64,000 bases of DNA, taken from assembly GCA_964346725.1 (NCBI GenBank), contig CAYFVM010000002.1:1582-65581 (forward strand). The letters run 5' to 3'. Under the pieces are notes generated by a model. That model was given only the letters and a program-made list of their open reading frames with translations, did not search any database and was not told where the DNA came from. Made by a program: the position numbers and the translations under genes. Positions 2,447 through 53,911 of this stretch are shown here, piece by piece (position 1 is the stretch's first letter; each line of letters starts with the position of its first letter). The stretch comes from an uncultured Bacteroidales bacterium. Lineage in GTDB: Bacteria; Bacteroidota; Bacteroidia; Bacteroidales; UBA1715.

Positions 2447-2479
2447 ATACAATTAAGTTCAATATTTCAACTTTTCGCA

Positions 2480-5400: not shown

Positions 5401-6301
5401 TAACGAAATTGAAGATTTTACATCGGTTATCACTGAAAAATGGACAACTGATACTTCAAAGAATGATTTGATTTCAAGTTTGCTTCACAATTTCTGCAAG
5501 AAACAGAAAGAAATCGAGGGAGAATATAAACGTAAAGAATACGCTATTTCCGTTGGAGACGAACTCCCTGCTGGAATCATGCAGTTGGCTAAAGTTTACA
5601 TTGCGCAAAAACGTAAATTGAAAGTCGGTGATAAGATGGCAGGTCGTCACGGTAACAAAGGTATCGTTTCTCGTATCGTAAGAGATGAGGATATGCCTTT
5701 CTTGGAAGACGGAACTATTGTAGATATCGTATTGAACCCTCTTGGTGTGCCTTCTCGTATGAACATAGGACAGATTTATGAAACTGTTCTAGGTTGGGCC
5801 GGAAAAGAATTAGGTTTGAATTTTGCAACCCCAATCTTTGATGGTGCATCACTTGAAGACATTACTGAATACACTCGCAAAGCAGGAGTTCCTGATTATG
5901 GTAAAACATATTTGTACGATGGTGGAACAGGAGAACGTTTTGACCAACCGGCAACTGTAGGTGTAATCTATATGCTGAAATTGGGACACTTAATTGATGA
6001 TAAGATGCATGCTCGTTCAATCGGACCATACTCATTGATTACGCAACAACCACTTGGAGGTAAAGCTCAATTTGGAGGTCAACGTTTCGGAGAAATGGAG
6101 GTTTGGGCAATCGAAGCATTCGGTGCATCAAATGTGTTGCAAGAAATTTTAACGATAAAATCTGATGATGTGATGGGCCGTGCTAAAGCATACGAAGCAA
6201 TCGTAAAAGGTGAGCCTCTTCCGACACCAGGATTACCGGAATCTTTCAACGTATTGTTGCATGAATTACGAGGATTGAGTCTCAATATAGATTTTGAATA
6301 A
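2480..6301 (+). CDS. rpoB: DNA-directed RNA polymerase beta subunit
   Basis: About 1273 aa, with many RpoB blocks (e.g. [64 protein letters not shown]). I chose the ATG at 2480 (MKTKERVNF) because the TTG at 2426 lies inside the terminator hairpin. Confidence 0.97.
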
Positions 6302-6336
6302 GCAATTGCATTAATAAATTTTAAAGTTCATAGGAT

Positions 6337-10578: not shown

Positions 10579-10600
10579 ATTTTTTGTTCTAAATAGTAAA

Positions 10601-10639
10601 AGAAGACAAGGAGTTTAATTTCCTTGTCTTCTTTTTTTA
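10601..10639 (+). terminator. Rho-independent terminator after rpoC
   Basis: A perfect 12-bp stem, AGAAGACAAGGA (10601-10612) / TCCTTGTCTTCT (10621-10632), has an 8-nt loop and is followed by a T-run at 10633-10638. Confidence 0.85.
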
Positions 10640-10665
10640 TATATTTCACAACTAAAAAGAAAAAT

Positions 10666-10971
10666 ATGGAAAATAAAGAACAACAACAAATTAGTATAGA
10701 TTTACCATCAGAAGTGGCTGACGGTATATATTCAAATTTAGCTATCATTTCTCATTCAAATGCAGAGTTTATACTTGACTTTGTACGAATGATGCCGGGA
10801 GTGCCAAAGGCAAAAGTTATGTCAAGAATTATTTTGACACCGGAGCATGCAAAAAAATTATTGATGGCATTGCAAGACAATGTTCAAAAATATGAACAAC
10901 ACAATGGCCAAATAAAAGAAACCAAAAACTTCCCGTTGCCAAACCTTGGTTCAGGTTCTGCACAAGCATAG
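10666..10971 (+). CDS. DUF3467-like small protein
   Basis: About 101 aa from the ATG at 10666 (MENKEQQQISIDL...YSNLAIISHSNAEFILDF). This pattern matches my recollection of DUF3467 proteins commonly encoded after rpoC in Bacteroidota. The longer ORF start at 10624 overlaps the terminator. Confidence 0.6.
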   Translation: MENKEQQQISIDLPSEVADGIYSNLAIISHSNAEFILDFVRMMPGVPKAKVMSRIILTPEHAKKLLMALQDNVQKYEQHNGQIKETKNFPLPNLGSGSAQA

Positions 10972-10975
10972 TAGC

Positions 10976-11710
10976 ATGGAAAAACAAGATTTTATATATG
11001 GCCCTCATGCGGTGCTTGAAGCATTGCAAGAAGGGAAAACTATAGACCAAATATTCATAAAGAAACAATCTGATAACGAACAAATCAGAGAAGTTATTTA
11101 TTTGGCTCGAAAACGAAATGTTACCGTTAAAAGTGTGCCAATTGAAAAATTGAATAGAATAACTCGAAAAGCACACCAAGGAATAGTCGCTTTTGTTTCT
11201 CCAATTGAATTTCAAGATATCGAGCGCATTGTTCCTTCTTTGTATGAAGAAGGTAAAGTGCCTTTTTTGGTTATTTTAGACGAAATATGTGATGTGAGAA
11301 ATTTTGGTGCAATTACCAGAACGTGCGAATGTATGGGCGTTGACGCTATTATTATTCCACAAAAAGGTGCAGCCCAAATAGGTGCCGATGCGGTGAAAAC
11401 GTCGGCTGGTGCTTTGTTCAAAATTCCAATTTGTAAGGTGTCGTCTCTAAAAAATACGATTACTTTCTTGCAAGAGTCCGGCATACAAGTAATTTGTGCC
11501 GCAGAGAAATTTTCAGAAAACTGCTATGATGTTGACATGACGCAACCCATAGCGCTTGTGTTTGGTGCAGAGGAAGATGGAATTGAAGCTTCCATTATAG
11601 AAAAAGCCGATGCTTGCATAAAAATTCCAATGAAGGGAGAAATTTCTTCATTAAACGTTTCTGCCGCTACCGCTATGTGCGTGTATGAGGTTTGTAGACA
11701 AAGAAAATAA
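10976..11710 (+). CDS. SpoU/TrmH-family RNA 2'-O-methyltransferase (RlmB-like)
   Basis: The start at ATG 10976 (MEKQDFIYGPHAVLEAL) lies just after the upstream stop. The SpoU substrate-binding N-terminus and the C-terminal knot motifs (LVFGAEEDGI, IPMKGEISSLNVSAA) are present. Confidence 0.85.
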   Translation: MEKQDFIYGPHAVLEALQEGKTIDQIFIKKQSDNEQIREVIYLARKRNVTVKSVPIEKLNRITRKAHQGIVAFVSPIEFQDIERIVPSLYEEGKVPFLVILDEICDVRNFGAITRTCECMGVDAIIIPQKGAAQIGADAVKTSAGALFKIPICKVSSLKNTITFLQESGIQVICAAEKFSENCYDVDMTQPIALVFGAEEDGIEASIIEKADACIKIPMKGEISSLNVSAATAMCVYEVCRQRK

Positions 11711-11790
11711 GAGCTTAACGCAGTTCGATGATTAGGGTTTATTCCAATCAACAAAAGAACATTTTCCCATCTTAGATTCTTATAAATTTT

Positions 11791-11798
11791 TATATTTG
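11791..11798 (+). promoter_or_regulatory. Candidate Bacteroidota -7 promoter box (TAnnTTTG) for the thi operon
   Basis: TATATTTG lies 8 nt upstream of the first base of the riboswitch P1 stem. No clean -33 TTTG was seen. Confidence 0.4.
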
Positions 11799-11805
11799 TT
11801 CCATA

Positions 11806-11884
11806 ATTGTTAGGGGTGCCATGAGAGTGGCTGAGATTATACCCTGTGAACTTGATTTGTATAATTACAACGAAAGGAAACAAT
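11806..11884 (+). promoter_or_regulatory. TPP (THI-box) riboswitch aptamer
   Basis: P1 is ATTGTT (11806-11811) / AACAAT (11879-11884). The conserved cores are AGGGGTGCC...GGCTGAGATTATACCC...TGAACTTGAT...ATAAT...CGAAAGGAA. It lies upstream of a thiamine operon. Confidence 0.92.
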
Positions 11885-11939
11885 CTCTCAGGCTGTTTAG
11901 CCAAACGTGTGTATCCCCTTTCGCTTAAAAGGAAAAAAA

Positions 11940-12635
11940 ATGAAAGTGTATGATGAGTATGCGAAGGAGTATGATGCATGGTTTCTTGAAAATCAAAATC
12001 TGTTACAATCCGAAGTGAAATTGGTTGCGCATTTTATGCGCAATCCCGGTAAGGCCTTGTCTATTGGCTGTGGCAGTGGTCTGTTTGAAATGATTCTTGA
12101 AAAAGAATATGAAATTAGCATAAAAAATGGCCTTGAACCTTCGTCTAGTATGGCTGAAATAGCTCGCAAAAGAGGTATGAATGTAACGATTGGCTCTGCC
12201 GAAGAATTTGTTTTGGGTAGCGACCAATACGATACCTTGCTATACAATGGTTGCCCAAGTTATATTTCTGACCTTCAGCCTTCTTTCGAAAATGCGTACA
12301 AGGCATTACATAAAGGCGGAAAAATAGTTGTGATAGACGTCCCGAAGGAGAGTGGATATGCAACTCTGTATAATTTGGCAATGACATTAGGCACGTGGGA
12401 CCATCCGCTGTTGAAAGATGTACAACCTCCGCATCCGTATCCCATTGAATTTGTGAAATCGGCAAATTGGCGTACCACGGGCGAAAAAGTTGAACTAATG
12501 AAACTCGTTGGTTTTAAAAATTTCCAATTCGCTCAAACACTTACTGCTGATCCGTGTTATTCCAATGATGCCGTGGAAGAACCGTCAGAAGGCTATTCTC
12601 GTGGCTCGTATGTGGCTATTTGTGCCGAGAAATAA
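11940..12635 (+). CDS. Class I SAM-dependent methyltransferase, first gene of the riboswitch-controlled thi operon
   Basis: 231 aa from the ATG at 11940. It has SAM motif I LSIGCGSGLFE and a post-I acidic residue. The product is otherwise unassigned. Confidence 0.75.
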   Translation: MKVYDEYAKEYDAWFLENQNLLQSEVKLVAHFMRNPGKALSIGCGSGLFEMILEKEYEISIKNGLEPSSSMAEIARKRGMNVTIGSAEEFVLGSDQYDTLLYNGCPSYISDLQPSFENAYKALHKGGKIVVIDVPKESGYATLYNLAMTLGTWDHPLLKDVQPPHPYPIEFVKSANWRTTGEKVELMKLVGFKNFQFAQTLTADPCYSNDAVEEPSEGYSRGSYVAICAEK

Positions 12636-43693: not shown

Positions 43694-44329
43694 ATGAAAA
43701 CCGATAAAACTATGAAAAGAATAATCCAAACATTGATGTTGTTTTTACTACTATCATCGTGTTGCAGAGAAGATTCAATAGAAGTAGCTCGATACGAGCT
43801 GGGAGCTCAGGAATTGGCATTATTGCCTTATTCAAATGGCCAAAAAGTTAGCTTTGTTCATTCAAATGGCTATGCTTTTGATTTTAATGTGATTGAGGAT
43901 AGAATTGAATGGGAACAACACCATGCTTTTTGTGAATGGAATTGTTGTGGGAATGAGTATTATTCATATCAAATGAAAACGACAATTCTAGAATCTACAT
44001 ATCCAAAGTTTCATATAGAATTTTCATTGGGCGGCGCAAGATTTCGTGAATACATACCCCAAACCCTAAATATCGAAATCAATAACAGACATTTTATTCA
44101 GTTTCCGTATGATACTTTGTCCAATTTTATTTGTGATTCAATAACCCAAACAATTTATTATGACTCTATTTCTCTAAATAATCAAATGTATTATAAGGTT
44201 TTTATGAGAAAATTCGAAAGCAATGTAAGCGATTCATCTCTATTAGAACCGATGTCTGTTTATTTCAATAATTTAGGATTGATTCAACTTGAAATGTCAA
44301 ATCATGAAACATATACAATTAACAAATAA
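43694..44329 (+). CDS. Hypothetical lipoprotein (paralogue 1)
   Basis: The lipoprotein signal is MKRIIQTLMLFLLLSSC, so the real start may be the second ATG at 43712. It shares blocks with the next gene. Confidence 0.6.
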   Translation: MKTDKTMKRIIQTLMLFLLLSSCCREDSIEVARYELGAQELALLPYSNGQKVSFVHSNGYAFDFNVIEDRIEWEQHHAFCEWNCCGNEYYSYQMKTTILESTYPKFHIEFSLGGARFREYIPQTLNIEINNRHFIQFPYDTLSNFICDSITQTIYYDSISLNNQMYYKVFMRKFESNVSDSSLLEPMSVYFNNLGLIQLEMSNHETYTINK

Positions 44330-44906
44330 GCTGATTCTTATTTCTGCTCTTTCACTACTATTAAATAGTTGCGGAGACATTAAAGGTGTTTTCAATATCA
44401 GTAGCGACGCAAGAAAATACCAGATAGACACCACCATTACAACCCTAAAGTTTGTTGACAATTATGGCATATCAGAAGAATTCTTTATGGATCAAGATGT
44501 CTGGTATAAAACACATCATTACTATAGCGAATGGGGAAGTGATGGCGATGCATGGGGTGAAAGCTATGGGGCTGCATATAGTTCAACAGTAAACGGATTC
44601 TTTTTCATGTTTGGGTTAAGAGCAACTGTTGAAAATACAGAACTTGAAATAGAATGGAACCAAAAAGATAGGCTTGTGTATAATTTCCGCACTAAGACGG
44701 TTGAATATGGTGTTGATGCAAAGATTAATTTCTACGACACTTTAACAGTCAGAGGAATACAATATAAAGACATAATTGAAGTTGATTACACAGAAAAAAT
44801 AAACGAAATAGACAAGGATACACCGGTAAAAACATACATTTCTGGCAATAAAGGGTTAATTAGATTTGAAAGAAAAGACAACGTAATATTAGAACGAATA
44901 GAATAA
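44304..44906 (+). CDS. Hypothetical lipoprotein (paralogue 2)
   Basis: MKHIQLTNKLILISALSLLLNSC has a lipobox. It shares HHxxxEW and C-terminal GLIxxE blocks with the upstream gene. The ATG at 44304 lies within the TTG-initiated ORF that starts at 44289. Confidence 0.6.
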   Translation: MKHIQLTNKLILISALSLLLNSCGDIKGVFNISSDARKYQIDTTITTLKFVDNYGISEEFFMDQDVWYKTHHYYSEWGSDGDAWGESYGAAYSSTVNGFFFMFGLRATVENTELEIEWNQKDRLVYNFRTKTVEYGVDAKINFYDTLTVRGIQYKDIIEVDYTEKINEIDKDTPVKTYISGNKGLIRFERKDNVILERIE

Positions 44907-44950
44907 GCACATACGTAAAATTTAGAAACCATTATAAAAACGATACAAGC

Positions 44951-45556
44951 ATGAAAAACAAAATTTTAGGATTTTTTTTAGTTTCAATTTCATTATCTGC
45001 ATTCGGACAAAGCAGTGATAAATTACCAAGATTTTTTGCTGACCCCATTATTGCAGATAGTTCATCTACTATGATGATTCCCACCAGTTATAATACCGAT
45101 TTGTTGACTTCAAGTAAAATAGCCCTATCGAATAATTATTACGCAAACATTATTTTCTACGATTTTAAGGCAGATACATCCAAGAAACTATTCAAGGATG
45201 ATACATTTATTCAAGCATTCCCTAATCATTACAACCGATACTACTACAATGAAAGAACTACCAAACATGAAAATATAAGCAGTAAGTGGATTTTTTATTT
45301 TGTAAAACCAAACGATTACGATAAAAGTGGCAAAGTTGATGATGATGACCCATCTATTCTCTATGTTTCTGACAAATATGGAAATGGATTACAGGCAATC
45401 ACACCGGCTAACGAAAACGCGGTTTCTATTGACATTTTTGATACGCAGGGTTTTGTACTAATAAAAATGCAACGTGATTTAGACAATGACAAAAATTTCA
45501 AATACAACGATAAAGATTTCTATTACATTCGACTTGATTTAAATACATTGGCATAG
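44951..45556 (+). CDS. Hypothetical secreted protein
   Basis: 201 aa. It has the signal peptide MKNKILGFFLVSISLSAFG/Q and two acidic DxDxxG/DxDxD loops (DYDKSGKVDDDD, DLDNDKNFKYND). I recognised no family. Confidence 0.55.
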   Translation: MKNKILGFFLVSISLSAFGQSSDKLPRFFADPIIADSSSTMMIPTSYNTDLLTSSKIALSNNYYANIIFYDFKADTSKKLFKDDTFIQAFPNHYNRYYYNERTTKHENISSKWIFYFVKPNDYDKSGKVDDDDPSILYVSDKYGNGLQAITPANENAVSIDIFDTQGFVLIKMQRDLDNDKNFKYNDKDFYYIRLDLNTLA

Positions 45557-45776
45557 GGGAATAAAATAGAGATTCAAAATTAATGTCCTCAAAGAAATCG
45601 AAAGAAATGAAAAAGCGTATTATTCTAGTATTATAAAAGATGGAAAACATTGGTGGTTCCCATGCTAAACAGCAAGCGCCGGAATTCCCCCAATAAATAC
45701 ACGAAAATTCCCCTCTCATTTCTCCCAAAATTGTATATTTGAAAAACGCATTACTAACGAATTAAAACTTCAACCT

Positions 45777-46526
45777 ATGGACTGTAAATCAGAATCAAAA
45801 CAAATTATTCTTGCCCTTTCAATAGTAATAGGGCTTTCGCTGTTAGGCTTTTTCATTTTCAAAGGACTTAAAACATTTAGCGACAAAGACCGAATAGTTA
45901 CCGTAAAAGGATTAGCTGAAATGAATATGACCGCAACGTCGGCCACGGTTACCTTACATTTTTCATTTTCGGGCGACACCTTGCAAGACATCATTGCCAA
46001 AACTGAAAGCAAGAAAAATGCAATCGTTACCTATATGACCAACAATGGCTACGACGCCAAAGACATTACCATAAAACAGATTGGCGTAAACGACCGACAA
46101 AAATATTACGAACCCCAATGGGTAGACGACAAACAAGTGCAGGTAAAAATAGATAGATATACCATTTCACAAAGTATCACCTTTGAGTCAAAAGACGTGA
46201 AAAGCATAGAGGACAAAGTTGCTCAATTGGAGTTGGAATTGGTGAGCAACGATTTAACCTGCACTATCAGTACCGACTATTCTTTCCCGGAACTAAATTC
46301 CATTAAACCTCAGTTGATAGCTGAAAGTACAAAAAATGCACGTGTTGCAGGAGAACAGTTTGCCAATGATTCGCAAGCAAAATTGGGCAAAATCAAGACC
46401 GCTTCACAAGGACAGATTACAATTGCAGGACGCTATTATTACGAAGAAGAATCAAGCGAGGCACCCAACGAACCCTATCTTCAAAAAGCAAGAGTTGTGA
46501 GTACCATTGTGTTTTTCTTGGAATAA
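45777..46526 (+). CDS. SIMPL (DUF541)-like protein
   Basis: 249 aa. An N-terminal TM anchor is followed by RIVTVKGLAEMNMTATSATVTL and a C-terminal AESTKNARVAGEQFANDSQAKLGKIKTASQG, resembling the SIMPL/YggE family. Confidence 0.6.
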   Translation: MDCKSESKQIILALSIVIGLSLLGFFIFKGLKTFSDKDRIVTVKGLAEMNMTATSATVTLHFSFSGDTLQDIIAKTESKKNAIVTYMTNNGYDAKDITIKQIGVNDRQKYYEPQWVDDKQVQVKIDRYTISQSITFESKDVKSIEDKVAQLELELVSNDLTCTISTDYSFPELNSIKPQLIAESTKNARVAGEQFANDSQAKLGKIKTASQGQITIAGRYYYEEESSEAPNEPYLQKARVVSTIVFFLE

Positions 46527-46540
46527 TAAAACTCACTCAA

Positions 46541-46579
46541 CCCCCTCAAAGGTACAACCACCCGGTTGTACCTTTTTTT
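46541..46579 (+). terminator. Terminator hairpin, repeat copy A
   Basis: CCCCCTCAAA-GGTACAACC-ACCC-GGTTGTACC-TTTTTTT. The stem is 46551-46559 / 46564-72 with a T7 tail. It is near-identical to the copy at 47423-47469. Confidence 0.8.
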
Positions 46580-46696
46580 ATGAAATAAAGCCCTCATATC
46601 TACGAAAGTCGTATATTTGAGTTCGCAATACATCGTTGGCGGTAAAGCTACAAAGCTATACCATAGACGTTACCACATATAAAAAAATATAAAAAA

Positions 46697-46728
46697 TTTG
46701 TAAATAAGTAACTTATAAGTTACATTTG
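46697..46728 (+). promoter_or_regulatory. Bacteroidota-type promoter (-33 TTTG / -7 TAcaTTTG) with an embedded 16-bp palindromic operator, for the toxin-antitoxin operon
   Basis: TTTG (46697-46700) is followed by a 20-nt spacer and then TACATTTG (46721-46728), 15 nt before the ATG at 46744. The perfect palindrome GTAACTTATAAGTTAC (46708-46723) spans the spacer and the -7 box. Confidence 0.6.
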
Positions 46729-46743
46729 TAAAGATATTTCTAT

Positions 46744-47097
46744 ATGAATGAAAGAATAAGAACGGTAGTCGCATATAAAGATTATTTTAAAGAATTCTTA
46801 TTGTCACAACCAGAAAAAGTTCAAAACAAAATATTTAAAATAATTGAGATAGTAGAGTGTCAACAGCGAATCCCTGAAAAATATATAAAACAAATAGAAG
46901 GAGAAAAAGGATTATATGAAACAAGAATTTCGTTGGGTTCAAATATTTGGAGAGTCTTTTGTTTTTTTGATGAAGGTAAATTAGTAATACTTTTAAATGG
47001 ATTTCAAAAGAAAACGCAGAAGACGCCAAAAAGTGAGATTAAAAAGGCAGTGTTATTAATGGAGCAATATTTTATTGATAAAAAAGAAAAACTATGA
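46744..47097 (+). CDS. Type II toxin, RelE/ParE superfamily (HigB / phage Gp49-like)
   Basis: 117 aa. Small basic blocks IKQIEGEKGLYETRISLGSNIWRVFCFFDEGKLVILLNGFQKKTQKTP are typical of Gp49/HigB-like toxins. There is a 4-nt overlap with the HTH partner. Confidence 0.8.
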   Translation: MNERIRTVVAYKDYFKEFLLSQPEKVQNKIFKIIEIVECQQRIPEKYIKQIEGEKGLYETRISLGSNIWRVFCFFDEGKLVILLNGFQKKTQKTPKSEIKKAVLLMEQYFIDKKEKL

Positions 47098-47387
47098 AAG
47101 AGGTAAATACGTGGTCTGATATAAAGAATGAAGTGTACGGACCAAAAGGAACAGAAAGAAGAGATGAGCTTGAAAGAGATTTCAAGTCATTTCAAATTGG
47201 TATGCAAATAAGAGAAGCAAGAGAGAAAAAAAATATAACTCAAAACCAATTAGGAGAAATCATATCTAAAAAAAGAACATACATTTCTCGAATTGAAAAC
47301 GATGCAAGTAATATCACGCTAAAAACGTTGTATGATATAGTTGAAAAAGGTCTGGGCGGAAAAATTAAAATACAAATTGAGGTATAA
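47094..47387 (+). CDS. XRE-family HTH antitoxin (HigA-like)
   Basis: 97 aa. The HTH is IREAREKKNITQNQLGEIISKKRTYISRIENDASNITLKTLYDI. It has toxin-then-antitoxin gene order, as in HigBA. Confidence 0.8.
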   Translation: MKEVNTWSDIKNEVYGPKGTERRDELERDFKSFQIGMQIREAREKKNITQNQLGEIISKKRTYISRIENDASNITLKTLYDIVEKGLGGKIKIQIEV

Positions 47388-47422
47388 ATAAAATAGACCA
47401 GAGGTAACGTGAGCCGTTGTCA

Positions 47423-47433
47423 CCCCCCCCCCC
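47423..47433. repeat. C11 homopolymer tract
   Basis: Eleven consecutive C lie immediately 5' of repeat copy B. The equivalent tract in copy A is C5 (46541-46545). Confidence 0.95.
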
Positions 47434-47438
47434 TCAAA

Positions 47439-47469
47439 AGCTACAACCACCCGGTTGTAGCTTTTTTTG
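47439..47469 (+). terminator. Terminator hairpin, repeat copy B
   Basis: AGCTACAACC-ACCC-GGTTGTAGCT-TTTTTTT. The loop and tail are the same as in copy A, and one stem base pair is swapped G:C to C:G. Confidence 0.8.
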
Positions 47470-47563
47470 TCTATAATATACCGAAATGAGAATCTCGTAT
47501 CTATGGATTATGTAGATTGGATAATTCCAAATAAAACATTGTGTAACCTATTGTAAAACTGAT

Positions 47564-48277
47564 ATGAGTATGAAAACAAGCATTATTATATGCAGTTACA
47601 ATGAAGAAAAGACTATTTCTGATGTCGTTATTTCATGTTGTGTGCATAACCCCAATTCCGAAGTAATAGTTGTAGATGATGTCTCTTTAGACAATACCGA
47701 GAGGGTATTAACCGAATTATCAAAGAAATATGTTTTTACGTATGAGAAATTAAAACAGAATCAAGGGAAAAGTTGGGCAATGGTTCATGGTGTTGAAGTT
47801 TCGACAGGTGATATAATTCTTTTTTTTGATGCCGACGTTTCAAATATCAAAAAGGAACACTTTTATGTTTTATTGACTCCACTGTATGAAGATGAAGCCG
47901 ATATTGTACTAGGCCAACCATCTGATACTCTCATTAATTATCAAATAAATCCATTTAAAACATTAACGGGGCAGAGGGCCTTGTTCAAAAAAGACATACT
48001 CCCGATTTTAAGCGAAATAAAAAACATAAGATTTGGAGTTGAAACATACATTAACCTCTATTACCAAGCACTCGGGAAAAGAATTAAATATGTGCTTCTC
48101 CAAGATTTAAAGCATCCAACCAAATATCAAAAGACCACACCAATTGAGGCGACGAAAGAATTTATTAAAGAAGGGCAAGAAATAGCCATAACATTAGCTA
48201 AAAACAACCAGCTGATTTTACAAAGGATAGAACTTCAATTTAATAGAACAAATGCCATTACCATGAAAAAAAATTAA
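47564..48277 (+). CDS. Small GT2 (GT-A fold) glycosyltransferase, GpgS/GT81-like layout
   Basis: 237 aa. It has IIICSYNEEKTI, VVDDVSLDNT, GKSWAM, and the DxD motif ILFFDADVS, then LTGQRALFKKDIL...RFGVETYINL. Confidence 0.75.
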   Translation: MSMKTSIIICSYNEEKTISDVVISCCVHNPNSEVIVVDDVSLDNTERVLTELSKKYVFTYEKLKQNQGKSWAMVHGVEVSTGDIILFFDADVSNIKKEHFYVLLTPLYEDEADIVLGQPSDTLINYQINPFKTLTGQRALFKKDILPILSEIKNIRFGVETYINLYYQALGKRIKYVLLQDLKHPTKYQKTTPIEATKEFIKEGQEIAITLAKNNQLILQRIELQFNRTNAITMKKN

Positions 48278-48450
48278 TGAAATTCAAGAGGAAATAAACA
48301 AAAGCCTGCAAGATTTGAAAAACAAGATTGATGAATTTACCGGAGAATAACAACGCACCACAATGCCCGGTGTGGTACATACAGAAAAGTGTTCACAAGT
48401 ATTTATAATAGAAGGAAAAGAGAACTTGTCCCAAACCAAAAATAAAATTA

Positions 48451-48458
48451 TACCTTTG
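48451..48458 (+). promoter_or_regulatory. Candidate -7 box (TAccTTTG) for the methylase operon
   Basis: TACCTTTG lies 17 nt before the ATG at 48476. TACCTTTGTAAAG differs at a single position from the TA-operon -7 region TACATTTGTAAAG. Confidence 0.4.
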
Positions 48459-48475
48459 TAAAGGACAAAACGCAT

Positions 48476-49396
48476 ATGATAACAAAGGCAAAACCATTCA
48501 TTAAATGGGTTGGCGGTAAAACCCAACTAATTGAAAGCATTCAAAAGGTGTTGCCTGTCGATTTTGCTGAGATTAAAAATGTTACCTATGTGGAGCCGTT
48601 TGTTGGTGGGGGAGCTGTTTTATTTTGGATTTTGCAACAATATCCAAATATTACAAAAGCCGTTATTAACGACATAAACCCCGATTTAACAACCGCCTAT
48701 AAAACCATCAAAGAAAAACCATCTGAACTTTGTAAATACTTACAAGCTATTCAAGATGAATATATCCCGTTGGGCGAAGAACAGCGAAAAGCATACTATC
48801 TAAACAAGCGAGAAAAATTCAACACTAAATCACTTGAACCTATCGAAAATACCGCATTGTTTATCTTTCTAAACCGTACGTGTTTCAATGGCTTATATCG
48901 TGTAAACAGTAAAGGACTTTTTAATGTCCCCTTTGGACGATACGCGAATCCTAAAATATGCGATGAGCAAACAATTTTTGCCGACAGCGAACTACTGCAA
49001 AAAGTAGAAATACTAACAGGTGATTTTGAACATACCTTACACTATGCTACTTCCAATAGCTTCTTTTATTTCGATCCGCCGTACAAACCATTAAGCGAAA
49101 CATCAAGTTTCAATTCGTATGCAAAAGAAGATTTCAATGATGTAGAGCAAATTCGATTAGCCAATTTTTGTAAAAAAATTGATATGCTTGGGCATACATT
49201 TATTTTAAGTAACTCTGATGTGAAAGGTAAAAATCCAACCGATGAATTCTTTGATACGTTATACGAGCCGTTCAACATCAAAAGGGTGCTTGCCACACGA
49301 ATGATTAATGCAAATGCTGAAAAGCGAGGAAAACTAACCGAATTATTAATCACCAACCAATCATCAGAGCAATTAGTATATTTCAGAGCAATTTGA
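48476..49396 (+). CDS. Dam-family (D12 class) N6-adenine DNA methyltransferase, DpnM/M.MboIA-like, predicted GATC
   Basis: 306 aa. It has PFIKWVGGKTQLI, EPFVGGGAV, NRTCFNGLYRVN, and the catalytic FYFDPPY. Confidence 0.9.
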   Translation: MITKAKPFIKWVGGKTQLIESIQKVLPVDFAEIKNVTYVEPFVGGGAVLFWILQQYPNITKAVINDINPDLTTAYKTIKEKPSELCKYLQAIQDEYIPLGEEQRKAYYLNKREKFNTKSLEPIENTALFIFLNRTCFNGLYRVNSKGLFNVPFGRYANPKICDEQTIFADSELLQKVEILTGDFEHTLHYATSNSFFYFDPPYKPLSETSSFNSYAKEDFNDVEQIRLANFCKKIDMLGHTFILSNSDVKGKNPTDEFFDTLYEPFNIKRVLATRMINANAEKRGKLTELLITNQSSEQLVYFRAI

Positions 49397-50224
49397 AACC
49401 TTTCTTTCGCAATTAAGTGAAACGAATGCAACCCTTGATTACTTTACCGATTTTGGAAAGATTACTTCTAACGTAAAGAAAATCTCAATAAAACTTAATC
49501 AGCTCAACTATTTAATAGGTAAAGAAGATTTAAAATCAGCGGTTCAAGAACTATTTGAAGAAAACGCAAAAGTTTTTGAAGTGTTAGATATTTTGATTGC
49601 TGTGAGAAAAAATAAATGTGCAAAAACATTCAATAAAGAAGGTGAAATAGTTTTGCTCAACTCTTATTTCGAATCACCGGATAAGATTTATGAGTTTATA
49701 GAAGGTACAGGGCTCGGCCAAACTGTTTCGAAACAAAAACATTACAAATCAATCTTGTAGATTATGTTTTTGGCGTTGAGGTAGGATTAGATACAAATGC
49801 AAGAAAAAACAGAGGCGGCGAAAATATGTCAAAGGCTGTTTCTCTACTCTTTGATAGTGCTCAAATCTTCTACAAAAAAGAGGTGAACTGTACAGAATTT
49901 CGCGAGATTACAAGTTTGGGTGTAGATTTAAAAAGATTTGATTTTGCAATAAAAACAAACGTTAAAACCTACCTCATAGAAACCAATTTTTACAATGGTA
50001 GAGGCTCTAAACTTAATGAAGTAGCAAGAGCATATTCCGATCTTGCTCCCAAAATAAATCAATATCCAAATTTTGAATTTGTTTGGATTACTGATGGTCA
50101 AGGCTGGCTGTCTGCAAAAAATAAATTGGAAGAAGCATTCTCAATAATTCCGAGTGTATATAATCTTTCAACTCTTGAATTGTTTATTCAAAAAATAAAA
50201 AAAGAAACAATAGTATCATTCTAA
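49377..50224 (+). pseudogene. DpnII/MboI-family type II restriction endonuclease, disrupted (no canonical start; at least one frameshift near 49715-49760)
   Basis: The C-terminal ORF (49826-50224) contains RFDFAIK...YLIETNFYNGRGSKLNEVARAY...FEFVWITDGQGW. The same frame upstream reads NLVDYVFGVEVGLDTNARKNRGG. The N-terminal half (SEQFETFLSQLSETNATLDYFTDFGKI...) is in another frame and ends at the TAG at 49758. The first in-frame codons after the TAG at 49374 are TAT ATT TCA. Confidence 0.8.
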
Positions 50225-50235
50225 AATATTATATA

Positions 50236-51801
50236 ATGGCATTTCTTCAACCATATCAACTAAAACAAGTTACGGATAGACTGACTCAAGATGCTTCTAC
50301 TCTTGGACGGCTCTATAGTTCAAAAAAGAAAAATTATATGGAGTTAAGCATAGACCATAATTTGGTCGATGTTTATATTAAAGATGGGTGGGAAGTATTC
50401 ACAACATTGAAAACAAAAACAAAAATAAAAAAACGAAAATCTGTAGCTAAAGAGTTTGAAGATAATATATGGTGTCAATTATACGAAATAGGGTACAGAA
50501 ATTTGAATTTTGATGAAAATCTTCATTTGCCTTATGGTAAAGAAGATTATGAAAAAAAACAAATTGATGTGGTTGCTATAGATGGCGAAACTGCTATCCT
50601 CGTTGAATGTAAATCAGCAATTAATCCATCCTCTGCGCCTTCTTATAAAACTGAATTTGAAGGGTTATCTTTAAAACTTGATGGTTTCAAAAAAACAATA
50701 AATCAATTATATGGTTCAGAAATTAAAATCAAATACATATTTGCAACAAAGAATATTCTGCTAAGTGACAAAAGCGAAGATTACAAAAGGTTAATGGACA
50801 CCAATTCATTTCATTACGATGACAATGCTTTTAAGTATGTTGAAAATCTTATATTGAATTATAAATATGCCGTTAAATATCAATTCCTTGGTTTAATATT
50901 TAAAAATCAACTTATTAATAATACTAAAATTGAAATACCTGCAATAGAAGGAGATATGGGGAATAAAAAATATTATATGTTTTCCATTGAACCATCTCTT
51001 TTATTAAAAATTGGATATATCCTACATAAAACTAAGACAAATGCAGAATTGCCAAATTATCAAAGATTACTTGTTCCTTCAAGACTTGTATCAATAACTC
51101 AATATATTGATAAAGGAGGGTGTTTCCCAAATTCCTTAATTGTAAACTTTAACGAATCTAAGCACGAAGTTAACTTTGAAAGTGTTGCAAGAAAAGACGG
51201 GACTTCTTCAAGATATGGGACTTTAAAAATACCAAATGCTTATGCATTAGCATACATAATAGATGGTCAACATCGATTGTATGGTTACGCGGGCTCAAAA
51301 TACCTTAATACAAATACAGTGCCTGTAGTAGCTTTTAAAAATTTATCACCAGAAGAACAACTTCATATTTTTGTTGATATTAATGAAAATCAAAAAGCTG
51401 TAAAACCAAGTTTAAGAACAATGTTGAAAGAAGACCTTTTATGGAGTTCTACTAGAGTCGATAGTAGAATGTCAGCTCTTCGTTCTGCAATTATTCGAGA
51501 ATTATCAGAGAATTTGACTAGCCCTTTATATGCAAAAATTGAAATCGGTGCAGATCCAGCTCCTTTAAGTGCCGATTTTTTTGATAGAGGTATTTTGGCC
51601 TCTGGATTATTACCAAAAGCAAAAGGTAATACTTATATAGAAGATTCATTAGAAGGCTCGATATACAATACGAACAATCTAGATCATTCTAATGAAATGC
51701 AAAAAACAAAAAAGGAAATTGTTGAGCTTGTTTCTTTATGTTACTCATTGGTAATAAATAACTATTCTGAATATTTACAACAGGGAAAAATACTTCATTA
51801 A
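50236..51801 (+). CDS. DGQHR-domain (DndB/ParB-like) protein with N-terminal PD-(D/E)xK-like motif; 5' fragment of a larger frameshifted gene
   Basis: 521 aa. It has IDVVAIDGETAILVECKS (50566-50613); then NYQRLLVPSRL, FPNSLIV, AYIIDGQHRLYGY (DGQHR at 51262-51276) and FVDINENQKAV. Confidence 0.8.
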   Translation: MAFLQPYQLKQVTDRLTQDASTLGRLYSSKKKNYMELSIDHNLVDVYIKDGWEVFTTLKTKTKIKKRKSVAKEFEDNIWCQLYEIGYRNLNFDENLHLPYGKEDYEKKQIDVVAIDGETAILVECKSAINPSSAPSYKTEFEGLSLKLDGFKKTINQLYGSEIKIKYIFATKNILLSDKSEDYKRLMDTNSFHYDDNAFKYVENLILNYKYAVKYQFLGLIFKNQLINNTKIEIPAIEGDMGNKKYYMFSIEPSLLLKIGYILHKTKTNAELPNYQRLLVPSRLVSITQYIDKGGCFPNSLIVNFNESKHEVNFESVARKDGTSSRYGTLKIPNAYALAYIIDGQHRLYGYAGSKYLNTNTVPVVAFKNLSPEEQLHIFVDINENQKAVKPSLRTMLKEDLLWSSTRVDSRMSALRSAIIRELSENLTSPLYAKIEIGADPAPLSADFFDRGILASGLLPKAKGNTYIEDSLEGSIYNTNNLDHSNEMQKTKKEIVELVSLCYSLVINNYSEYLQQGKILH

Positions 51802-51947
51802 TTCTAATCGAGGAACTTATGCCTTTTTGTGTACAATTGGCAGTATAAACTGTTTTTTTAACCCAAAATGGTATTATAACAAAATCAACACCGTCAATTG
51901 AAAGATTTAATCATATTAAAAAATACTTAGTAGCTTTATTTGATAAT

Positions 51948-52577
51948 ATGAAAGTTCTAAAAGAGGAAGAGGGAGATAAAGTCCTAAAAATACAAGGAGA
52001 AGGAGCAGGAAAAAGTTGGGTGTGTTTCTTCCAAGAACTTATTAATAAAACATATAGTGAATTTAATCCAATTGAATTAATAGAATGGAAAGAAAAAAAC
52101 AATGAAGATATTCAAACTAAAGGAAGAAAATATGCGACAGAGATTGAAAAGAAAATAAAACAATTAGTATTAGAAGGGATCAAAGAAATATATGGTGATA
52201 ATTGGGATTTAGAAATAAGTGCTATTAAAAGAAAATGTATTGAACTAGCAGAAGCTGAAATTGAAAAACAAGATATCGAAACAAAAGAACGTATTGATAT
52301 ACCGTGGATCGATATGTTTACAATCATGGATTATAAAAAAATTATAACTGATAATTGGACAAAGCAGCCAACAAACAAAACAGACTTTATAACCTTTGAG
52401 AAATTATTCTCAATAAACATCGGTGAAGAATTTAATAGTAAAAGTGATAAAGTTAGATGGTTGTCAAAATTCAATTCATATAGAAATTTAATCGCTCACG
52501 AAGGGACAAAGGAAAAGGCAATCACACGTAAAGAAGTAGAATTTTTAGAAAATATTCATAACCATTTTTATAAGTAA
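51948..52577 (+). CDS. Swt1-like HEPN domain; 3' fragment of the same frameshifted gene (frame open from 51849)
   Basis: 209 aa. It has IYGDNWDLE, MDYKKIITDNW and FNSYRNLIAHEG, with Rx4H at 52482-52499. The upstream 147 nt are coding in a third frame that links it to the 50236 ORF. Confidence 0.7.
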   Translation: MKVLKEEEGDKVLKIQGEGAGKSWVCFFQELINKTYSEFNPIELIEWKEKNNEDIQTKGRKYATEIEKKIKQLVLEGIKEIYGDNWDLEISAIKRKCIELAEAEIEKQDIETKERIDIPWIDMFTIMDYKKIITDNWTKQPTNKTDFITFEKLFSINIGEEFNSKSDKVRWLSKFNSYRNLIAHEGTKEKAITRKEVEFLENIHNHFYK

Positions 52578-53453
52578 TTGAAAAGTTATTTCAAATCCGC
52601 AGATAAAGCCTTCACCTTATTGCAAGGCGATAGTATTGAACTTTTAAATCAGTTTGATTTTAAGTTTGATATGATTTTTGCTGACCCACCATATTTCTTG
52701 TCAAACGGTGGCATTTCTGTGCAAAGTGGCAAGATGGTTAGCGTAAACAAAGGAGATTGGGACAAGTCGCAAGGATTTGAAAAGGATAACGAATTTAATT
52801 ATAACTGGCTAAAAGCCTGTAAAGACCATTTAACCGACAACGGCACTATATGGGTAAGCGGAACATTTCATAATATATTCTCTGTTGCGCAAATGCTTAC
52901 CGAACTCGATTATAAAATACTTAATTGCATTACCTGGGCAAAAACAAACCCTCCGCCAAATCTTTCGTGTCGCTATTTTACTCATTCTACTGAGTTTATC
53001 ATTTGGGCACGCAAGAGCAAAAAAGCCTCGCACTATTACAATTATGAGTTAATGAAGTCCATTAATGGCGGTACTCAAATGAAAGATGTTTGGCATTTGC
53101 CTGCCATAGCTCCTTGGGAAAAATCGTGTGGAAAACACCCTACCCAAAAACCTTTGGCATTGCTCACACGTATTATAATTGCATCTACTCAAAAAAATGC
53201 GTGGATTCTTGACCCATTCACCGGTAGCTCTACTACCGGTATTGCCGCAAATCTTGCTAATAGAAAATTTCTTGGTATCGACAAAGAAGAAGCATTTCTG
53301 AACATATCAAAAAATAGAAAACTCGAAATTGAGAATCCTCAAATAGTTGCTGAGTATAGAAAAAAACTTCGCGGTTTCGAAACCAATACGCAATTGCAAT
53401 TATTTTTAGCAGAAGAACCCGAAGTTGAATATCAAAGAACGCTCAAGTTCTAA
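52578..53453 (+). CDS. N6_N4-type (beta class) adenine DNA methyltransferase, DpnA/M.MboIB-like, predicted GATC
   Basis: 291 aa. It has MIFADPPYFLSNGG, KGDWDK, ITWAKTNPPPNLSCRYFTHSTEFIIWARK, GKHPTQKP and ILDPFTGSSTTG, very similar to my recollection of DpnA. A TTG start directly abuts the upstream stop. Confidence 0.88.
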   Translation: MKSYFKSADKAFTLLQGDSIELLNQFDFKFDMIFADPPYFLSNGGISVQSGKMVSVNKGDWDKSQGFEKDNEFNYNWLKACKDHLTDNGTIWVSGTFHNIFSVAQMLTELDYKILNCITWAKTNPPPNLSCRYFTHSTEFIIWARKSKKASHYYNYELMKSINGGTQMKDVWHLPAIAPWEKSCGKHPTQKPLALLTRIIIASTQKNAWILDPFTGSSTTGIAANLANRKFLGIDKEEAFLNISKNRKLEIENPQIVAEYRKKLRGFETNTQLQLFLAEEPEVEYQRTLKF

Positions 53454-53482: not shown

Positions 53483-53911
53483 ATGAGAATCTGGTCTATC
53501 CATCCAAAATATCTTGATGCCAAAGGCCTTGTGGCACTTTGGAGAGAAACACTCCTTGCTAAACACGTGTTAGAGGGAAAAACCAAAGGATATATCCACC
53601 ATCCGCAACTTACTCGGTTTTGCACCGCGCCAAACCCCTTGGCTGCTATCAACCAATATCTGTCGGTGGTTTATCAAGAGGCAGTTGCGAGAGGCTATCA
53701 CTTCGATGCCTCCAAAATAGAGCCGACCAGTGCGCCCACACACATTACCGTCACTCAAGGGCAGGTGGACTACGAATTCCATCATCTTCTTAGAAAACTA
53801 CAAGTCAGAGACCCTCAACTGTATCAAACAGTAGCAGACGTGCGTCAATGTCAAGCGCACCCGCTATTTCAAGTAGTAGAAGGGGGAGTAGAAGCGTGGG
53901 AGAAGCAATAA
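53483..53911 (+). CDS. Pyrimidine-dimer DNA glycosylase / endonuclease V-like protein (Pyr_excise family)
   Basis: 142 aa. The N-terminus is MRIWSIHPKYLDAKGLVALWRETLLAKHVLEGKTKGYIHHPQLTRF, the hallmark of this family as I recall it. Confidence 0.7.
   Translation: MRIWSIHPKYLDAKGLVALWRETLLAKHVLEGKTKGYIHHPQLTRFCTAPNPLAAINQYLSVVYQEAVARGYHFDASKIEPTSAPTHITVTQGQVDYEFHHLLRKLQVRDPQLYQTVADVRQCQAHPLFQVVEGGVEAWEKQ

What the first reader, a model, noticed from the sequence alone, without database searches (positions are those of the whole stretch)
50236..52577. About 780-aa PD-(D/E)xK + DGQHR (DndB/ParB-like) + Swt1-type HEPN protein nested in the R-M operon: candidate uncharacterised defence effector
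Domain content:
- The 50236-51801 ORF has a restriction-endonuclease-like motif (D111/D116...E124-x-K126 in IDVVAIDGETAILVECKS).
- The same ORF has the DGQHR-family signature set: NYQRLLVPSRL, FPNSLIV, IIDGQHRLYGY and FVDINENQKAV.
- The 51948-52577 ORF has the layout of Swt1-like HEPN domains (IYGDNWDLE ... MDYKKIITDNW ... FNSYRNLIAHEG) with an Rx4H motif.

The intervening 147 nt are coding in a third frame (EKYFINSNRGTYAFLCTIGSINCFF). The three pieces therefore form one gene once two single-nucleotide insertions are removed.

The protein would combine a DNase-like module, a ParB-fold (potentially NTP-binding) module and a predicted RNase module. DGQHR/DndB proteins are known to me only as accessories of phosphorothioation or 7-deazaguanine DNA-modification clusters, and neither is present here. 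The only modification genes nearby are adenine methylases. I know of no experimentally characterised system with this architecture or context.
Basis: partly seen in the sequence, partly recalled or inferred. Interest (0 to 1): 0.85.

Follow-up and report, generated by a model that had tools for sequence, protein, structure and literature searches.

The report
Broken Dam-linked nuclease–DGQHR–HEPN effector gene
This is a frameshift-inactivated copy of a widespread, untested 780-residue bacterial protein that joins a DNA-cutting domain, a ParB-like nucleotide-binding domain and a likely RNA-cutting domain. Intact copies almost always sit directly behind a Dam-type DNA methylase, so the pair looks like an undescribed kind of restriction-modification system.

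Summary
Window 50236-52577 is one gene read in three frames. Removing one base from the G3A5 tract (51783-51790) and one from the T7 tract (51853-59) gives a stop-free 779-aa protein. It aligns end to end (52-60% identity) with over 100 intact 778-794-aa proteins.

Domain support is uneven:
- DGQHR/ParB-like: firm (TIGR03187, 131 bits).
- N-terminal PD-(D/E)xK: good. D111, E124 and K126 are conserved; D116 is not.
- C-terminal HEPN: moderate. It has an RNxxAH motif and repeated sub-threshold Abi_2/Swt1/Apea hits, but no fold-search confirmation.

The main new result is context. In 70 of 80 related loci a Dam-subfamily methylase lies immediately upstream on the same strand. No other neighbour is conserved in the window's clade. 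Gut and rumen Bacteroidales versions have lost the HEPN motif and carry an SF2 helicase downstream.

I read the pair as a self-contained Dam-gated restriction-like cassette. This function is inferred, not shown. In the window the effector is grafted into an MboI/DpnII-type M1-R-M2 operon. It and the DpnII endonuclease gene are the only visibly broken genes in 64 kb, and both methylases are intact. I found no experimental characterisation.

The parts
48476..49396 (+). M1: intact Dam/DpnM-type (D12 class) N6-adenine DNA methylase, first gene of the operon
   Evidence: Pfam MethyltransfD12, 216.7 bits. NCBIfam TIGR00571 Dam subfamily, 303.7 bits against a cutoff of 114.85. Mean identity is 45% to the Dam partners of the gut-clade loci and 33% to those of the window effector's own clade.
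49380..50224 (+). DpnII-family restriction endonuclease pseudogene. It is read in two frames, with the frame change at about 49730-49760. There is no ATG/GTG/TTG start upstream of 49581 in the N-terminal frame.
   Evidence: Pfam DpnII matches 49581-49760 (profile 66-122) and 49826-50224 (profile 150-273, 137 bits) in different frames. tblastn with the intact DpnII of L063 picks up the C-terminal part from 49751.
50236..52577 (+). The finding: a pseudogene of a 779-aa PD-(D/E)xK + DGQHR(ParB-like) + helical linker + HEPN protein, split over three frames
50236..50928 (+). N-terminal module (residues 1-231): a small N-terminal subdomain plus the PD-(D/E)xK nuclease core. Catalytic D111 is at 50566-50568, E124 at 50605-50607 and K126 at 50611-50613.
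   Evidence: D111 is conserved in 74/74, E124 in 73/74 and K126 in 70/74. Sub-threshold Pfam hits occur to NERD in 25/25, Hjc in 24/25 and Card1_endonuc in 17/25 orthologues. The top Foldseek hits of the AF2 model are PD-(D/E)xK nucleases: VC1899, Cdn1, Can2, AF1548, Hjc (probability up to 1.0, E 5e-3 to 1). The module occurs almost only at the N-terminus of 745-800-aa proteins (619 representatives at E<=1e-3).
50929..51650 (+). DGQHR / ParB-Srx-fold module (about residues 232-470). DGQHR is at 51262-51276, with QR at residues 276-277 and the FxxxN asparagine at N383.
   Evidence: TIGR03187, 131.3 bits against a cutoff of 58.85. Pfam DndB, 66.7 bits against 29.1. DGQHR, QR and N383 are invariant in 74/74.
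51783..51790 (+). Frameshift 1: a +1 insertion in the GGGAAAAA tract
   Evidence: Deleting one G restores QQEKYFI, which matches the family consensus.
51853..51859 (+). Frameshift 2: a +1 insertion in the T7 run
   Evidence: Deleting one T restores GSINCFLTQNG, which matches the consensus GSLNxFxTxxG.
51948..52577 (+). C-terminal all-alpha module with the HEPN-type motif R-N-L-I-A-H. R is at 52482-52484 and H at 52497-52499.
   Evidence: AF2 model pLDDT 86.9, all helical. Among 75 family C-termini the top Pfam families are Abi_2 (23 members, best E 2.8e-5), HEPN_Apea (23) and HEPN_Swt1 (19, best 1.4e-4). R and H are kept in 38/39 members of the window's clade. Foldseek against the PDB gives no significant match.
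52578..53453 (+). M2: intact DpnA/CcrM-like N6_N4 (beta-class) adenine methylase. Its TTG start directly abuts the effector's stop codon.
   Evidence: Pfam N6_N4_Mtase, 189.7 bits. 51-61% identical to the methylases at +2 in five gut-clade loci and 57% to the one at -3 in L063.

Best explanation
The gene is a recently inactivated copy of the effector half of a two-gene, restriction-modification-like cassette.

Shown:
- The family is large and conserved over its full length.
- Its three candidate catalytic motifs are conserved.
- A Dam-subfamily methylase is almost always encoded directly upstream, in an operon-like arrangement.
- In some gut Bacteroidales the effector, together with a helicase, occupies the position between two adenine methylases. 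In MboI-type GATC systems (gene order from my own knowledge) that position is held by the endonuclease.

Inferred mechanism:
- The Dam-type methylase marks host DNA, probably at GATC.
- The effector's DGQHR/ParB-fold module binds DNA and a nucleotide triphosphate. DndB-like proteins bind ATP and GTP.
- The effector licenses its N-terminal PD-(D/E)xK nuclease to cut DNA that lacks the mark.
- In the window's clade the C-terminal HEPN domain adds an RNase activity as a second, abortive-infection-type arm.
- In the gut clade that arm is lost and an SF2 helicase partner is used instead.

In this window the effector gene was recruited into a DpnII/MboI-type operon (M1-R-effector-M2). Both nuclease genes have since been knocked out by frameshifts. 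Two intact adenine methylases remain as orphans.
For: Gene and family:
- Single-gene reconstruction and full-length homology.

Domains:
- TIGR03187.
- PD-(D/E)xK evidence.
- HEPN evidence.

Linkage to Dam:
- A D12/Dam methylase lies co-directionally upstream in 70 of 80 loci. In 59 the gap is -34 to +77 nt. In 10 a 148-aa DUF7226 gene lies between them.
- Of the 10 loci without it, 6 are truncated or lack enough upstream sequence (L034's own gene is also split) and L037 is truncated within the gene.
- All 9 partner methylases tested reach TIGR00571 at 216-304 bits.
- Effector and Dam pairwise identities correlate, r = 0.73 over 68 loci.
- No other conserved neighbour exists in the window's clade.

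R-M-like layout:
- Five-gene operons Dam-DUF7226-effector-SF2 helicase-DpnA-like methylase have near-zero gene spacing (gaps or overlaps of a few bases; up to 11 nt overlap).
- The effector sits directly downstream of a DpnII endonuclease gene in two separate lineages: the window and L063. Their effectors are only 42% identical and each has closer relatives elsewhere.

Selective decay:
- About 60 long ORFs in the window are intact. Only the DpnII R gene and this gene are broken, and both methylases are intact.

Other:
- 72 of 74 complete orthologues are intact.
- DndB-like proteins bind ATP/GTP (bioRxiv 10.1101/2025.10.10.680097).
Against: - No activity has been shown for any member.
- The methylase specificity (GATC) is inferred only from Dam-subfamily membership and the DpnII association.
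- The HEPN fold is not confirmed by Foldseek. Its motif is dispensable in one clade.
- Two loci, L007 and L024, carry the effector without any adjacent methylase. For a classical restriction enzyme this would be lethal unless a methylase is encoded elsewhere.
- A distant relative on plasmid pNL1 sits beside radical-SAM, ATPase and second-DGQHR genes, with no Dam.
- Canonical DndB is a regulator, not a nuclease.
- I cannot exclude that the frameshifts are assembly errors.
Confidence: 0.55

Rival explanations
1. DndB-like regulator or accessory. The protein controls or assists the adjacent methylase: an NTP-dependent repressor like DndB, or an ATPase helper like DpdB for DpdA. It does not attack foreign DNA.
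For: The only above-threshold family assignment is the DGQHR/DndB superfamily. The gene is tightly coupled to a modification gene. DndB is reported as an ATP-dependent regulator (PMC4507180, listed; PMC10853773).
Against: Scores are far below the equivalog cutoffs: DndB 38.9 against 328, DpdB 64 against 300. Only the first half of the DndB profile matches. An extra N-terminal nuclease module with invariant D...ExK and a HEPN motif have no role in a regulator. In the window the gene is knocked out together with the endonuclease, while both methylases stay intact.
Confidence: 0.15
2. Abortive-infection toxin rather than restriction enzyme. The protein senses invading DNA or loss of methylation, then kills or arrests the cell, mainly through HEPN RNase activity. 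The DNase module is secondary.
For: An Abi2/Swt1-clade HEPN signal and the RNxxAH motif are conserved in 38/39 members of the window's clade. Anantharaman et al. 2013 propose HEPN domains in R-M operons as a suicidal second line of defence (PMC3710099).
Against: The HEPN motif is deleted or substituted in 32/35 gut-clade members, while the nuclease and DGQHR motifs stay invariant. The conserved core function therefore does not need HEPN catalysis.
Confidence: 0.2
3. The frameshifts are assembly or sequencing errors at homopolymers. The gene, and the DpnII gene, are intact and functional in the organism.
For: All three lesions lie in or beside short homopolymer runs. The repaired ORF has no other lesion and keeps 97% of the invariant positions.
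Against: About 58 kb of other coding sequence in the same window has no broken gene, including ORFs of 1291 and 1413 codons. Three indels confined to the two nuclease genes of one operon fit selective inactivation better. Tracts of 3-7 bases are short for systematic error.
Confidence: 0.15
4. Modification-dependent (Type IV-like) nuclease of the GmrSD/SspE/BrxU design: a ParB-fold NTPase plus a nuclease that attacks modified phage DNA. The neighbouring methylase would be incidental.
For: The design logic is the same: a ParB-fold DGQ(H/Q)R NTPase fused to a nuclease (PMC4619093).
Against: No DUF262 or DUF1524/HNH hit was found. PADLOC gave no hit. Near-obligatory operonic coupling to a Dam methylase is not expected for Type IV enzymes.
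Confidence: 0.07

Closest known systems
DndB / DpdB / DGQHR-domain proteins (TIGR03187, PF14072)
   Same: ParB/Srx-fold DGQHR module with QR, DGQHR and FxxxN motifs, encoded next to a DNA-modification gene. DndB is also described as a ParB domain followed by a HEPN domain (Makarova et al. 2013, PMC3632139).
   Different: About twice the size. It has an added N-terminal PD-(D/E)xK nuclease module. Only the first half of the DndB/DGQHR profiles matches. Scores are far below the DndB, DpdB and DGQHR_dnd_1 equivalog cutoffs. The partner is a Dam adenine methylase, not dndACDE or dpdA.
Swt1/Abi2-clade HEPN fused to ParB (Saro_3948 group of Anantharaman et al. 2013)
   Same: The same ParB + C-terminal HEPN fusion was catalogued in silico. 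A 769-aa DGQHR protein on N. aromaticivorans pNL1 aligns over 92% of the family at 28% identity. I did not check that this protein is Saro_3948.
   Different: That relative lies beside radical-SAM, ATPase and second-DGQHR genes, without a Dam methylase. The Dam-linked cassette and its helicase-linked, HEPN-dead clade are not described in that paper.
MboI/DpnII-type GATC restriction-modification systems (M1-R-M2)
   Same: A Dam-type M1 upstream and, in the window, L063 and five gut loci, a DpnA-type second methylase. The effector occupies the R position, or sits next to R.
   Different: The effector shares no similarity with DpnII/MboI endonucleases. It carries an NTP-binding ParB fold and a HEPN domain, and in one clade it works with an SF2 helicase. 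That is closer in logic to NTP-dependent Type I/III/ISP enzymes.
GmrSD / SspE / BrxU (DUF262 ParB-fold NTPase + DUF1524 HNH nuclease)
   Same: A DGQ(Q/H)R ParB-fold NTPase coupled to a DNA nuclease in one polypeptide, with a defence role.
   Different: The nuclease fold differs (PD-(D/E)xK rather than HNH) and so does the domain order. There are no DUF262/DUF1524 matches. Those enzymes are modification-dependent and are not paired with a cognate methylase.

Membership tests
DGQHR domain family (TIGR03187 / Pfam DndB PF14072) | Profile score above the curated cutoff | tested here: met
   TIGR03187 131.3 bits against 58.85. PF14072 66.7 bits against 29.1. All 25 of 25 orthologues hit PF14072.
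DGQHR domain family (TIGR03187 / Pfam DndB PF14072) | QR pair, DGQHR pentapeptide and FxxxN motif | tested here: met
   Q276 and R277, D343-R347 and N383 are present in the window copy and in 73-74 of 74 homologues.
DndB proper (TIGR03233 equivalog) | Equivalog score and linkage to dndACDE | tested here: not met
   38.9 bits against a cutoff of 328. No dnd genes were seen among the ORFs of 42-60 kb, nor among conserved neighbours in 80 loci.
DpdB (NF041060 equivalog) | Equivalog score and linkage to dpdA / 7-deazaguanine genes | tested here: not met
   64 bits against a cutoff of 300. No such neighbours were found.
PD-(D/E)xK (restriction endonuclease-like) nucleases | Conserved D ... (D/E)xK catalytic motif on the core beta strands | tested here: met
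   D111, E124 and K126 are conserved in 70-74 of 74. In the AF2 model they lie on strands E112-115 and E119-133.
PD-(D/E)xK (restriction endonuclease-like) nucleases | Profile or fold match to known members | tested here: inconclusive
   NERD hits 25/25, Hjc 24/25 and Card1_endonuc 17/25, all below the gathering score (best E 1.3e-4). The top Foldseek hits are all PD-(D/E)xK nucleases with probability up to 1.0, but E is 5e-3 or worse.
HEPN superfamily (Abi2/Swt1 clade) | Rx4-6H motif | tested here: met
   R749-N-L-I-A-H754 in the window copy. R and H are kept in 38/39 members of its clade and lost in 32/35 gut-clade members.
HEPN superfamily (Abi2/Swt1 clade) | Profile or fold match to known HEPN domains | tested here: inconclusive
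   Abi_2, HEPN_Apea, HEPN_Swt1 and HEPN_RiboL-PSP are four of the six Pfam families matched by most of the 75 C-termini (ranks 1-3 and 6), but only at sub-threshold scores (best E 2.8e-5). Foldseek of a pLDDT-87 model finds nothing significant; a HEPN toxin ranks 8 at E 4.2.
Type II restriction-modification system | Nuclease gene adjacent to a DNA methylase gene | tested here: met
   A Dam-subfamily methylase lies directly upstream in 70/80 loci. The window has M1 and M2.
Type II restriction-modification system | Endonuclease cleavage at a defined site, blocked by the cognate methylation | not testable with these tools
   Needs biochemistry or in vivo restriction assays.
GmrSD/SspE/BrxU Type IV enzymes | DUF262 N-terminal and DUF1524 (HNH) C-terminal domains | tested here: not met
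   No DUF262 or DUF1524 hit in the Pfam scans of the window protein or of 25 orthologues.
Any system in PADLOC-DB v2.0.0 | Match to a defence-system protein model | tested here: not met
   0 families at E<=1 for the repaired 779-aa protein.

The most novel reading that the evidence does not exclude
The Dam methylase plus this triple-module protein is a previously unrecognised, widespread class of NTP-dependent restriction system. A ParB-fold nucleotide switch would gate a PD-(D/E)xK DNase on unmethylated (probably GATC) DNA. It would have one of two interchangeable back-up arms: a HEPN RNase in environmental lineages, or an SF2 helicase in gut and rumen Bacteroidales. The system can share its methylation mark with classical DpnII/MboI systems.
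Probability: 0.4. Interest if true: 0.75.

Novelty: new variant of a known kind. Interest (0 to 1): 0.6.

Why it matters
If the inference holds, ParB/DGQHR nucleotide switches would gain a role as the sensing or licensing module of a restriction enzyme. So far they are known from chromosome segregation, phosphorothioation control, 7-deazaguanine insertion and Type IV enzymes.

It would also define a common cassette. At least 591 stretches in species-representative genomes encode a relative, and more than 2,700 protein clusters exist. The cassette would be a transformation and phage barrier in Bacteroidota, including gut and rumen Bacteroidales that are hard to manipulate genetically.

The swap between an active HEPN motif and a helicase partner is a natural experiment on how R-M systems combine DNA-level and RNA-level effectors.

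For this window, the practical message is that the locus is a decayed R-M cluster. Its two methylases are likely to act as orphans.

Tried and rejected
Searches that found nothing useful:
- PDB sequence searches with the repaired protein and with a 25-sequence profile gave nothing relevant.
- Foldseek of the full-length model gave only weak hits, all to the nuclease module.
- Foldseek of the separately modelled C-terminal ORF gave no support for HEPN. The HEPN call therefore rests on the motif and on collective sub-threshold profile hits.
- PADLOC found no match to the effector.
- The exact 521-aa product is not on record in the contig index.
- An exact 42-mer across the T7 frameshift is absent from the species-representative genomes. 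No second copy of the broken allele and no closer intact allele was found; the nearest protein is 60% identical.
- Literature searches on DGQHR, DndB-like, PF14072, DUF7226 and ParB-like/HEPN/Dam combinations found no description or test of the Dam-linked cassette.

Ideas considered and rejected:
- Phase variation. Two independent +1 shifts in tracts of 3-7 bases would both have to revert.
- Defence-island embedding. The flanks in the window's clade are mostly housekeeping genes.
- D116 as a catalytic residue. It is not conserved.
- A single origin of the DpnII association. The window and L063 effectors are only 42% identical, and each has closer relatives that lack DpnII.
Full report
**What is in the sequence.** Window 50236-52577 holds an ORF of 521 codons (50236-51801) and one of 209 codons (51948-52577) in different frames. 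The 147 nt between them are open in the third frame and read EKYFINSNRGTYAFLCTIGSINCFF. Both frame changes are +1. They fall in a GGGAAAAA tract (51783-51790) and a T7 run (51853-51859). Removing one base from each gives a 779-codon ORF with no other lesion. Deleting a G rather than an A at the first site restores QQEKYFI, which matches the family consensus ExEKYFI.

**Homology of the repaired protein.** The repaired protein hits more than 2,700 protein clusters. The best 120 or so are 778-794 aa, cover 100% of the query at 52-60% identity, and are named at most 'DGQHR domain-containing protein'. The middle-frame segment contains family-invariant residues (SNRG). The one-gene reading is therefore certain. 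The repaired protein keeps 174 of 179 invariant columns; intact members keep 94-100% in leave-one-out tests. The inactivation is recent, or, less likely, an artefact.

**Domains.**
- *DGQHR/ParB-fold module* (about residues 232-470): firm. TIGR03187 scores 131 bits against a cutoff of 58.85, and Pfam DndB scores 66.7 against 29.1. The QR, DGQHR and FxxxN residues are invariant in 74 full-length homologues. The protein is not DndB, DpdB or DGQHR_dnd_1: its scores of 39-80 bits compare with equivalog cutoffs of 300-450, and only the first half of those profiles matches.
- *N-terminal PD-(D/E)xK module*: well supported.
- D111, E124 and K126 are conserved.
  - All 25 orthologues give sub-threshold NERD hits, 24 give Hjc and 17 give Card1_endonuc.
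  - An AlphaFold2 model of orthologue P0002 (pLDDT 84, pTM 0.69) has PD-(D/E)xK nucleases as its best PDB neighbours: VC1899, Cdn1, Can2, AF1548 and Hjc. Probabilities reach 1.0 but E-values are only 5e-3 to 1.
  - This N-terminal module occurs almost only at the start of 745-800-aa proteins. There are 619 representatives at 50% clustering with E<=1e-3.
- *C-terminal module*: all-alpha (model of the window's own 209-aa ORF, pLDDT 87), with the motif R-N-L-I-A-H. Foldseek gives no significant match. Among 75 family C-termini, Pfam's Abi_2 (23 members, best E 2.8e-5), HEPN_Apea (23), HEPN_Swt1 (19, best 1.4e-4) and RiboL-PSP-HEPN (6) are among the most often matched families, holding ranks 1-3 and 6. 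I rate HEPN of the Abi2/Swt1 clade as probable, not proven.

**Context in the window.** The operon has four genes.
- M1 (48476-49396) is a Dam/DpnM-type methylase and is intact.
- Next comes a DpnII-family endonuclease gene, read in two frames with the change near 49730-49760. It has no canonical start codon for its N-terminal part.
- The effector gene follows 11 nt later.
- M2 (52578-53453) is a DpnA/CcrM-like N6_N4 methylase and is intact. It starts on the base after the effector's stop.

A greedy ORF map of the whole window shows about 60 long intact ORFs, including two of 1291 and 1413 codons. No other gap suggests a broken gene. Three indels confined to the two nuclease genes, with both methylases spared, is the classic pattern of R-M decay. 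It argues against general sequencing error. The region around 43.7-53.5 kb is 27-37% GC against 39-43% in the flanks, and it sits just upstream of mraZ and the dcw cluster. The host is an uncultured rumen or gut Bacteroidales: the 1291-aa product of 2426-6298, RpoB by size and conservation (not profile-checked), is 93% identical to two such MAGs.

**Context of intact relatives, the main new result.** A scan of one genome per species found at least 591 stretches encoding a relative, and 80 were retrieved. Most are Bacteroidota. Alpha-, Beta-, Gamma- and Zetaproteobacteria, Campylobacterota, Patescibacteria, Acidobacteriota and Fibrobacter also appear, at 53-67% identity, which implies horizontal spread.
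- In 70 of the 80 loci a D12-class methylase lies upstream on the same strand. In 59 it is the adjacent gene, with gaps of -34 to +77 nt. In 10 a 148-aa DUF7226 gene intervenes.
- Of the ten exceptions, seven are cut by contig ends or lack enough upstream sequence (L034's own gene is also split). Two, L007 and L024, are true orphans. One, L063, has a DpnA-like methylase and an intact DpnII endonuclease immediately upstream, as in the window.
- All nine partner methylases tested belong to the Dam subfamily TIGR00571 (216-304 bits).
- Pairwise identities of effectors and of their methylases correlate at r = 0.73.
- In the window's clade nothing else is conserved. Scanning 145 flanking proteins gave mostly housekeeping families and only scattered defence hits.

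The unit is therefore a self-contained, mobile two-gene cassette rather than a resident of defence islands.

**Two clades.** Thirty loci, 29 of them gut and rumen Bacteroidales where the effector is about 40% identical to the window's (the other is L080), have a 470-560-aa SF2 helicase (ResIII + Helicase_C) directly downstream. Five of these also carry a DpnA-like methylase after the helicase. That gives tight five-gene operons: Dam-DUF7226-effector-helicase-M2. In this clade the HEPN R/H motif is substituted or deleted in 32 of 35 members, while the nuclease and DGQHR motifs stay invariant. In the other clade, which includes the window copy, R and H are kept in 38 of 39. The conserved core is thus nuclease plus DGQHR. 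HEPN catalysis and the helicase look like alternative accessories.

**The window operon is a chimera.** Its effector belongs to the HEPN-active clade (mean 51% identity, against 40% to the gut clade). Its M1 resembles the gut-clade Dam partners (45% against 33%). The window and L063 effectors are only 42% identical and each has closer relatives without DpnII. The effector has therefore joined a DpnII system at least twice. This is the best indirect argument that the effector is compatible with, and probably keyed to, GATC adenine methylation.

**Interpretation.** I read the family as the nuclease/effector subunit of a Dam-gated restriction-like system.
- *Shown:* the architecture, the motif conservation, the operonic coupling to Dam, occupation of the endonuclease slot between two adenine methylases, and selective inactivation alongside DpnII R in this window.
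- *Inferred:* the methylase marks self DNA; the ParB-fold module binds DNA and NTP (a DndB-like protein binds ATP and GTP; bioRxiv 10.1101/2025.10.10.680097) and licenses the PD-(D/E)xK domain on unmarked DNA; HEPN provides an RNase back-up.
- *Rivals:* a DndB/DpdB-like regulator or helper, a mainly abortive-infection toxin, a Type IV-like enzyme, and assembly error. Each is weighed in its own section of this report.
- *Counter-evidence:* the two orphan loci, and the distant pNL1 relative that lies next to radical-SAM/ATPase genes.

**Known or new.**
- Anantharaman et al. 2013 (PMC3710099) list a Swt1-like HEPN fused to ParB (Saro_3948).
- Makarova et al. 2013 (PMC3632139) note that DndB is a ParB domain followed by a HEPN domain, and that COG1479/DGQHR proteins fuse to PD-(D/E)xK, HNH and HEPN domains.
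- The 2024 reappraisal of Dnd systems (PMC10853773) does not mention a Dam-linked form.
- PADLOC v2 has no model for the protein.
- I found no experimental work on the family.

The domain combination is therefore catalogued, and the family is annotated only generically. The obligate Dam partnership, the clade split between HEPN and helicase, and the R-M-like role appear undescribed. I file it as a new variant of a known kind (restriction-modification). I score interest at 0.6. The family is a good, directly testable candidate, but the copy in this window is dead, and the mechanism rests on comparative inference.

Noticed in passing
window 49380-50224: The DpnII-family restriction endonuclease gene of the same operon is also broken. 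There is a frame change near 49730-49760, and no ATG/GTG/TTG start for the N-terminal 65 or so residues; the reading frame opens at TAT ATT just after a TAG. Both methylases of the operon are intact.
   Followed up: partly
window 43694-53453 against the flanks: A low-GC block (27-37% GC, against 39-43% in the flanks) lies immediately upstream of mraZ/rsmH/ftsL/ftsI/murE/mraY. It holds three unannotatable 200-aa ORFs, a SIMPL/DUF541 gene, a toxin-antitoxin pair, a GT2 glycosyltransferase and the R-M operon. It looks like a horizontally acquired island.
   Followed up: partly
window 46744-47387: A Gp49/DUF891 (HigB-like) toxin gene overlaps by 4 nt an HTH_3 (HigA-like) antitoxin gene. This is a type II toxin-antitoxin pair at 27-31% GC, just upstream of the R-M operon.
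   Followed up: partly
window 53483-53911: A pyrimidine-dimer DNA glycosylase (Pyr_excise, DenV-like; 80 bits) lies directly after M2. Its GC content (48%) is well above both the island and the flanks. Its origin and any link to the operon are unexplained.
   Followed up: no
L042-L079 (gut/rumen Bacteroidales loci), e.g. L062 8620-14957: This clade of the family has lost the HEPN Rx4H motif, by substitution or a 6-residue deletion. It has an SF2 helicase directly downstream, often a DUF7226 gene between Dam and the effector, and sometimes a DpnA-like methylase with a 130-aa C-terminal extension or an HNH_2 protein at +2.
   Followed up: partly
L034 1609-3980; L036 10001-12350: Two further loci carry split copies of the effector gene: 145+647 aa in L034 and 562+94+88 aa in L036. 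L036 breaks in the same linker region as the window copy. Its contig name suggests a long-read assembly, so errors are possible.
   Followed up: no
L081 (N. aromaticivorans pNL1) 5860-12358: A distant full-length relative (28% identity) lies head-to-tail with an operon of an ATP-binding protein, a radical SAM protein and a second, 335-aa DGQHR protein, with no Dam methylase. This may be a different modification system using the same effector architecture.
   Followed up: no
L007 and L024: Intact effector genes with no adjacent methylase. The upstream genes are a 130-aa ORF of unknown family in L007 and a protein I read by eye as tyrosyl-tRNA synthetase in L024. If the protein is a restriction nuclease, these genomes should encode a compatible Dam elsewhere.
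   Followed up: no
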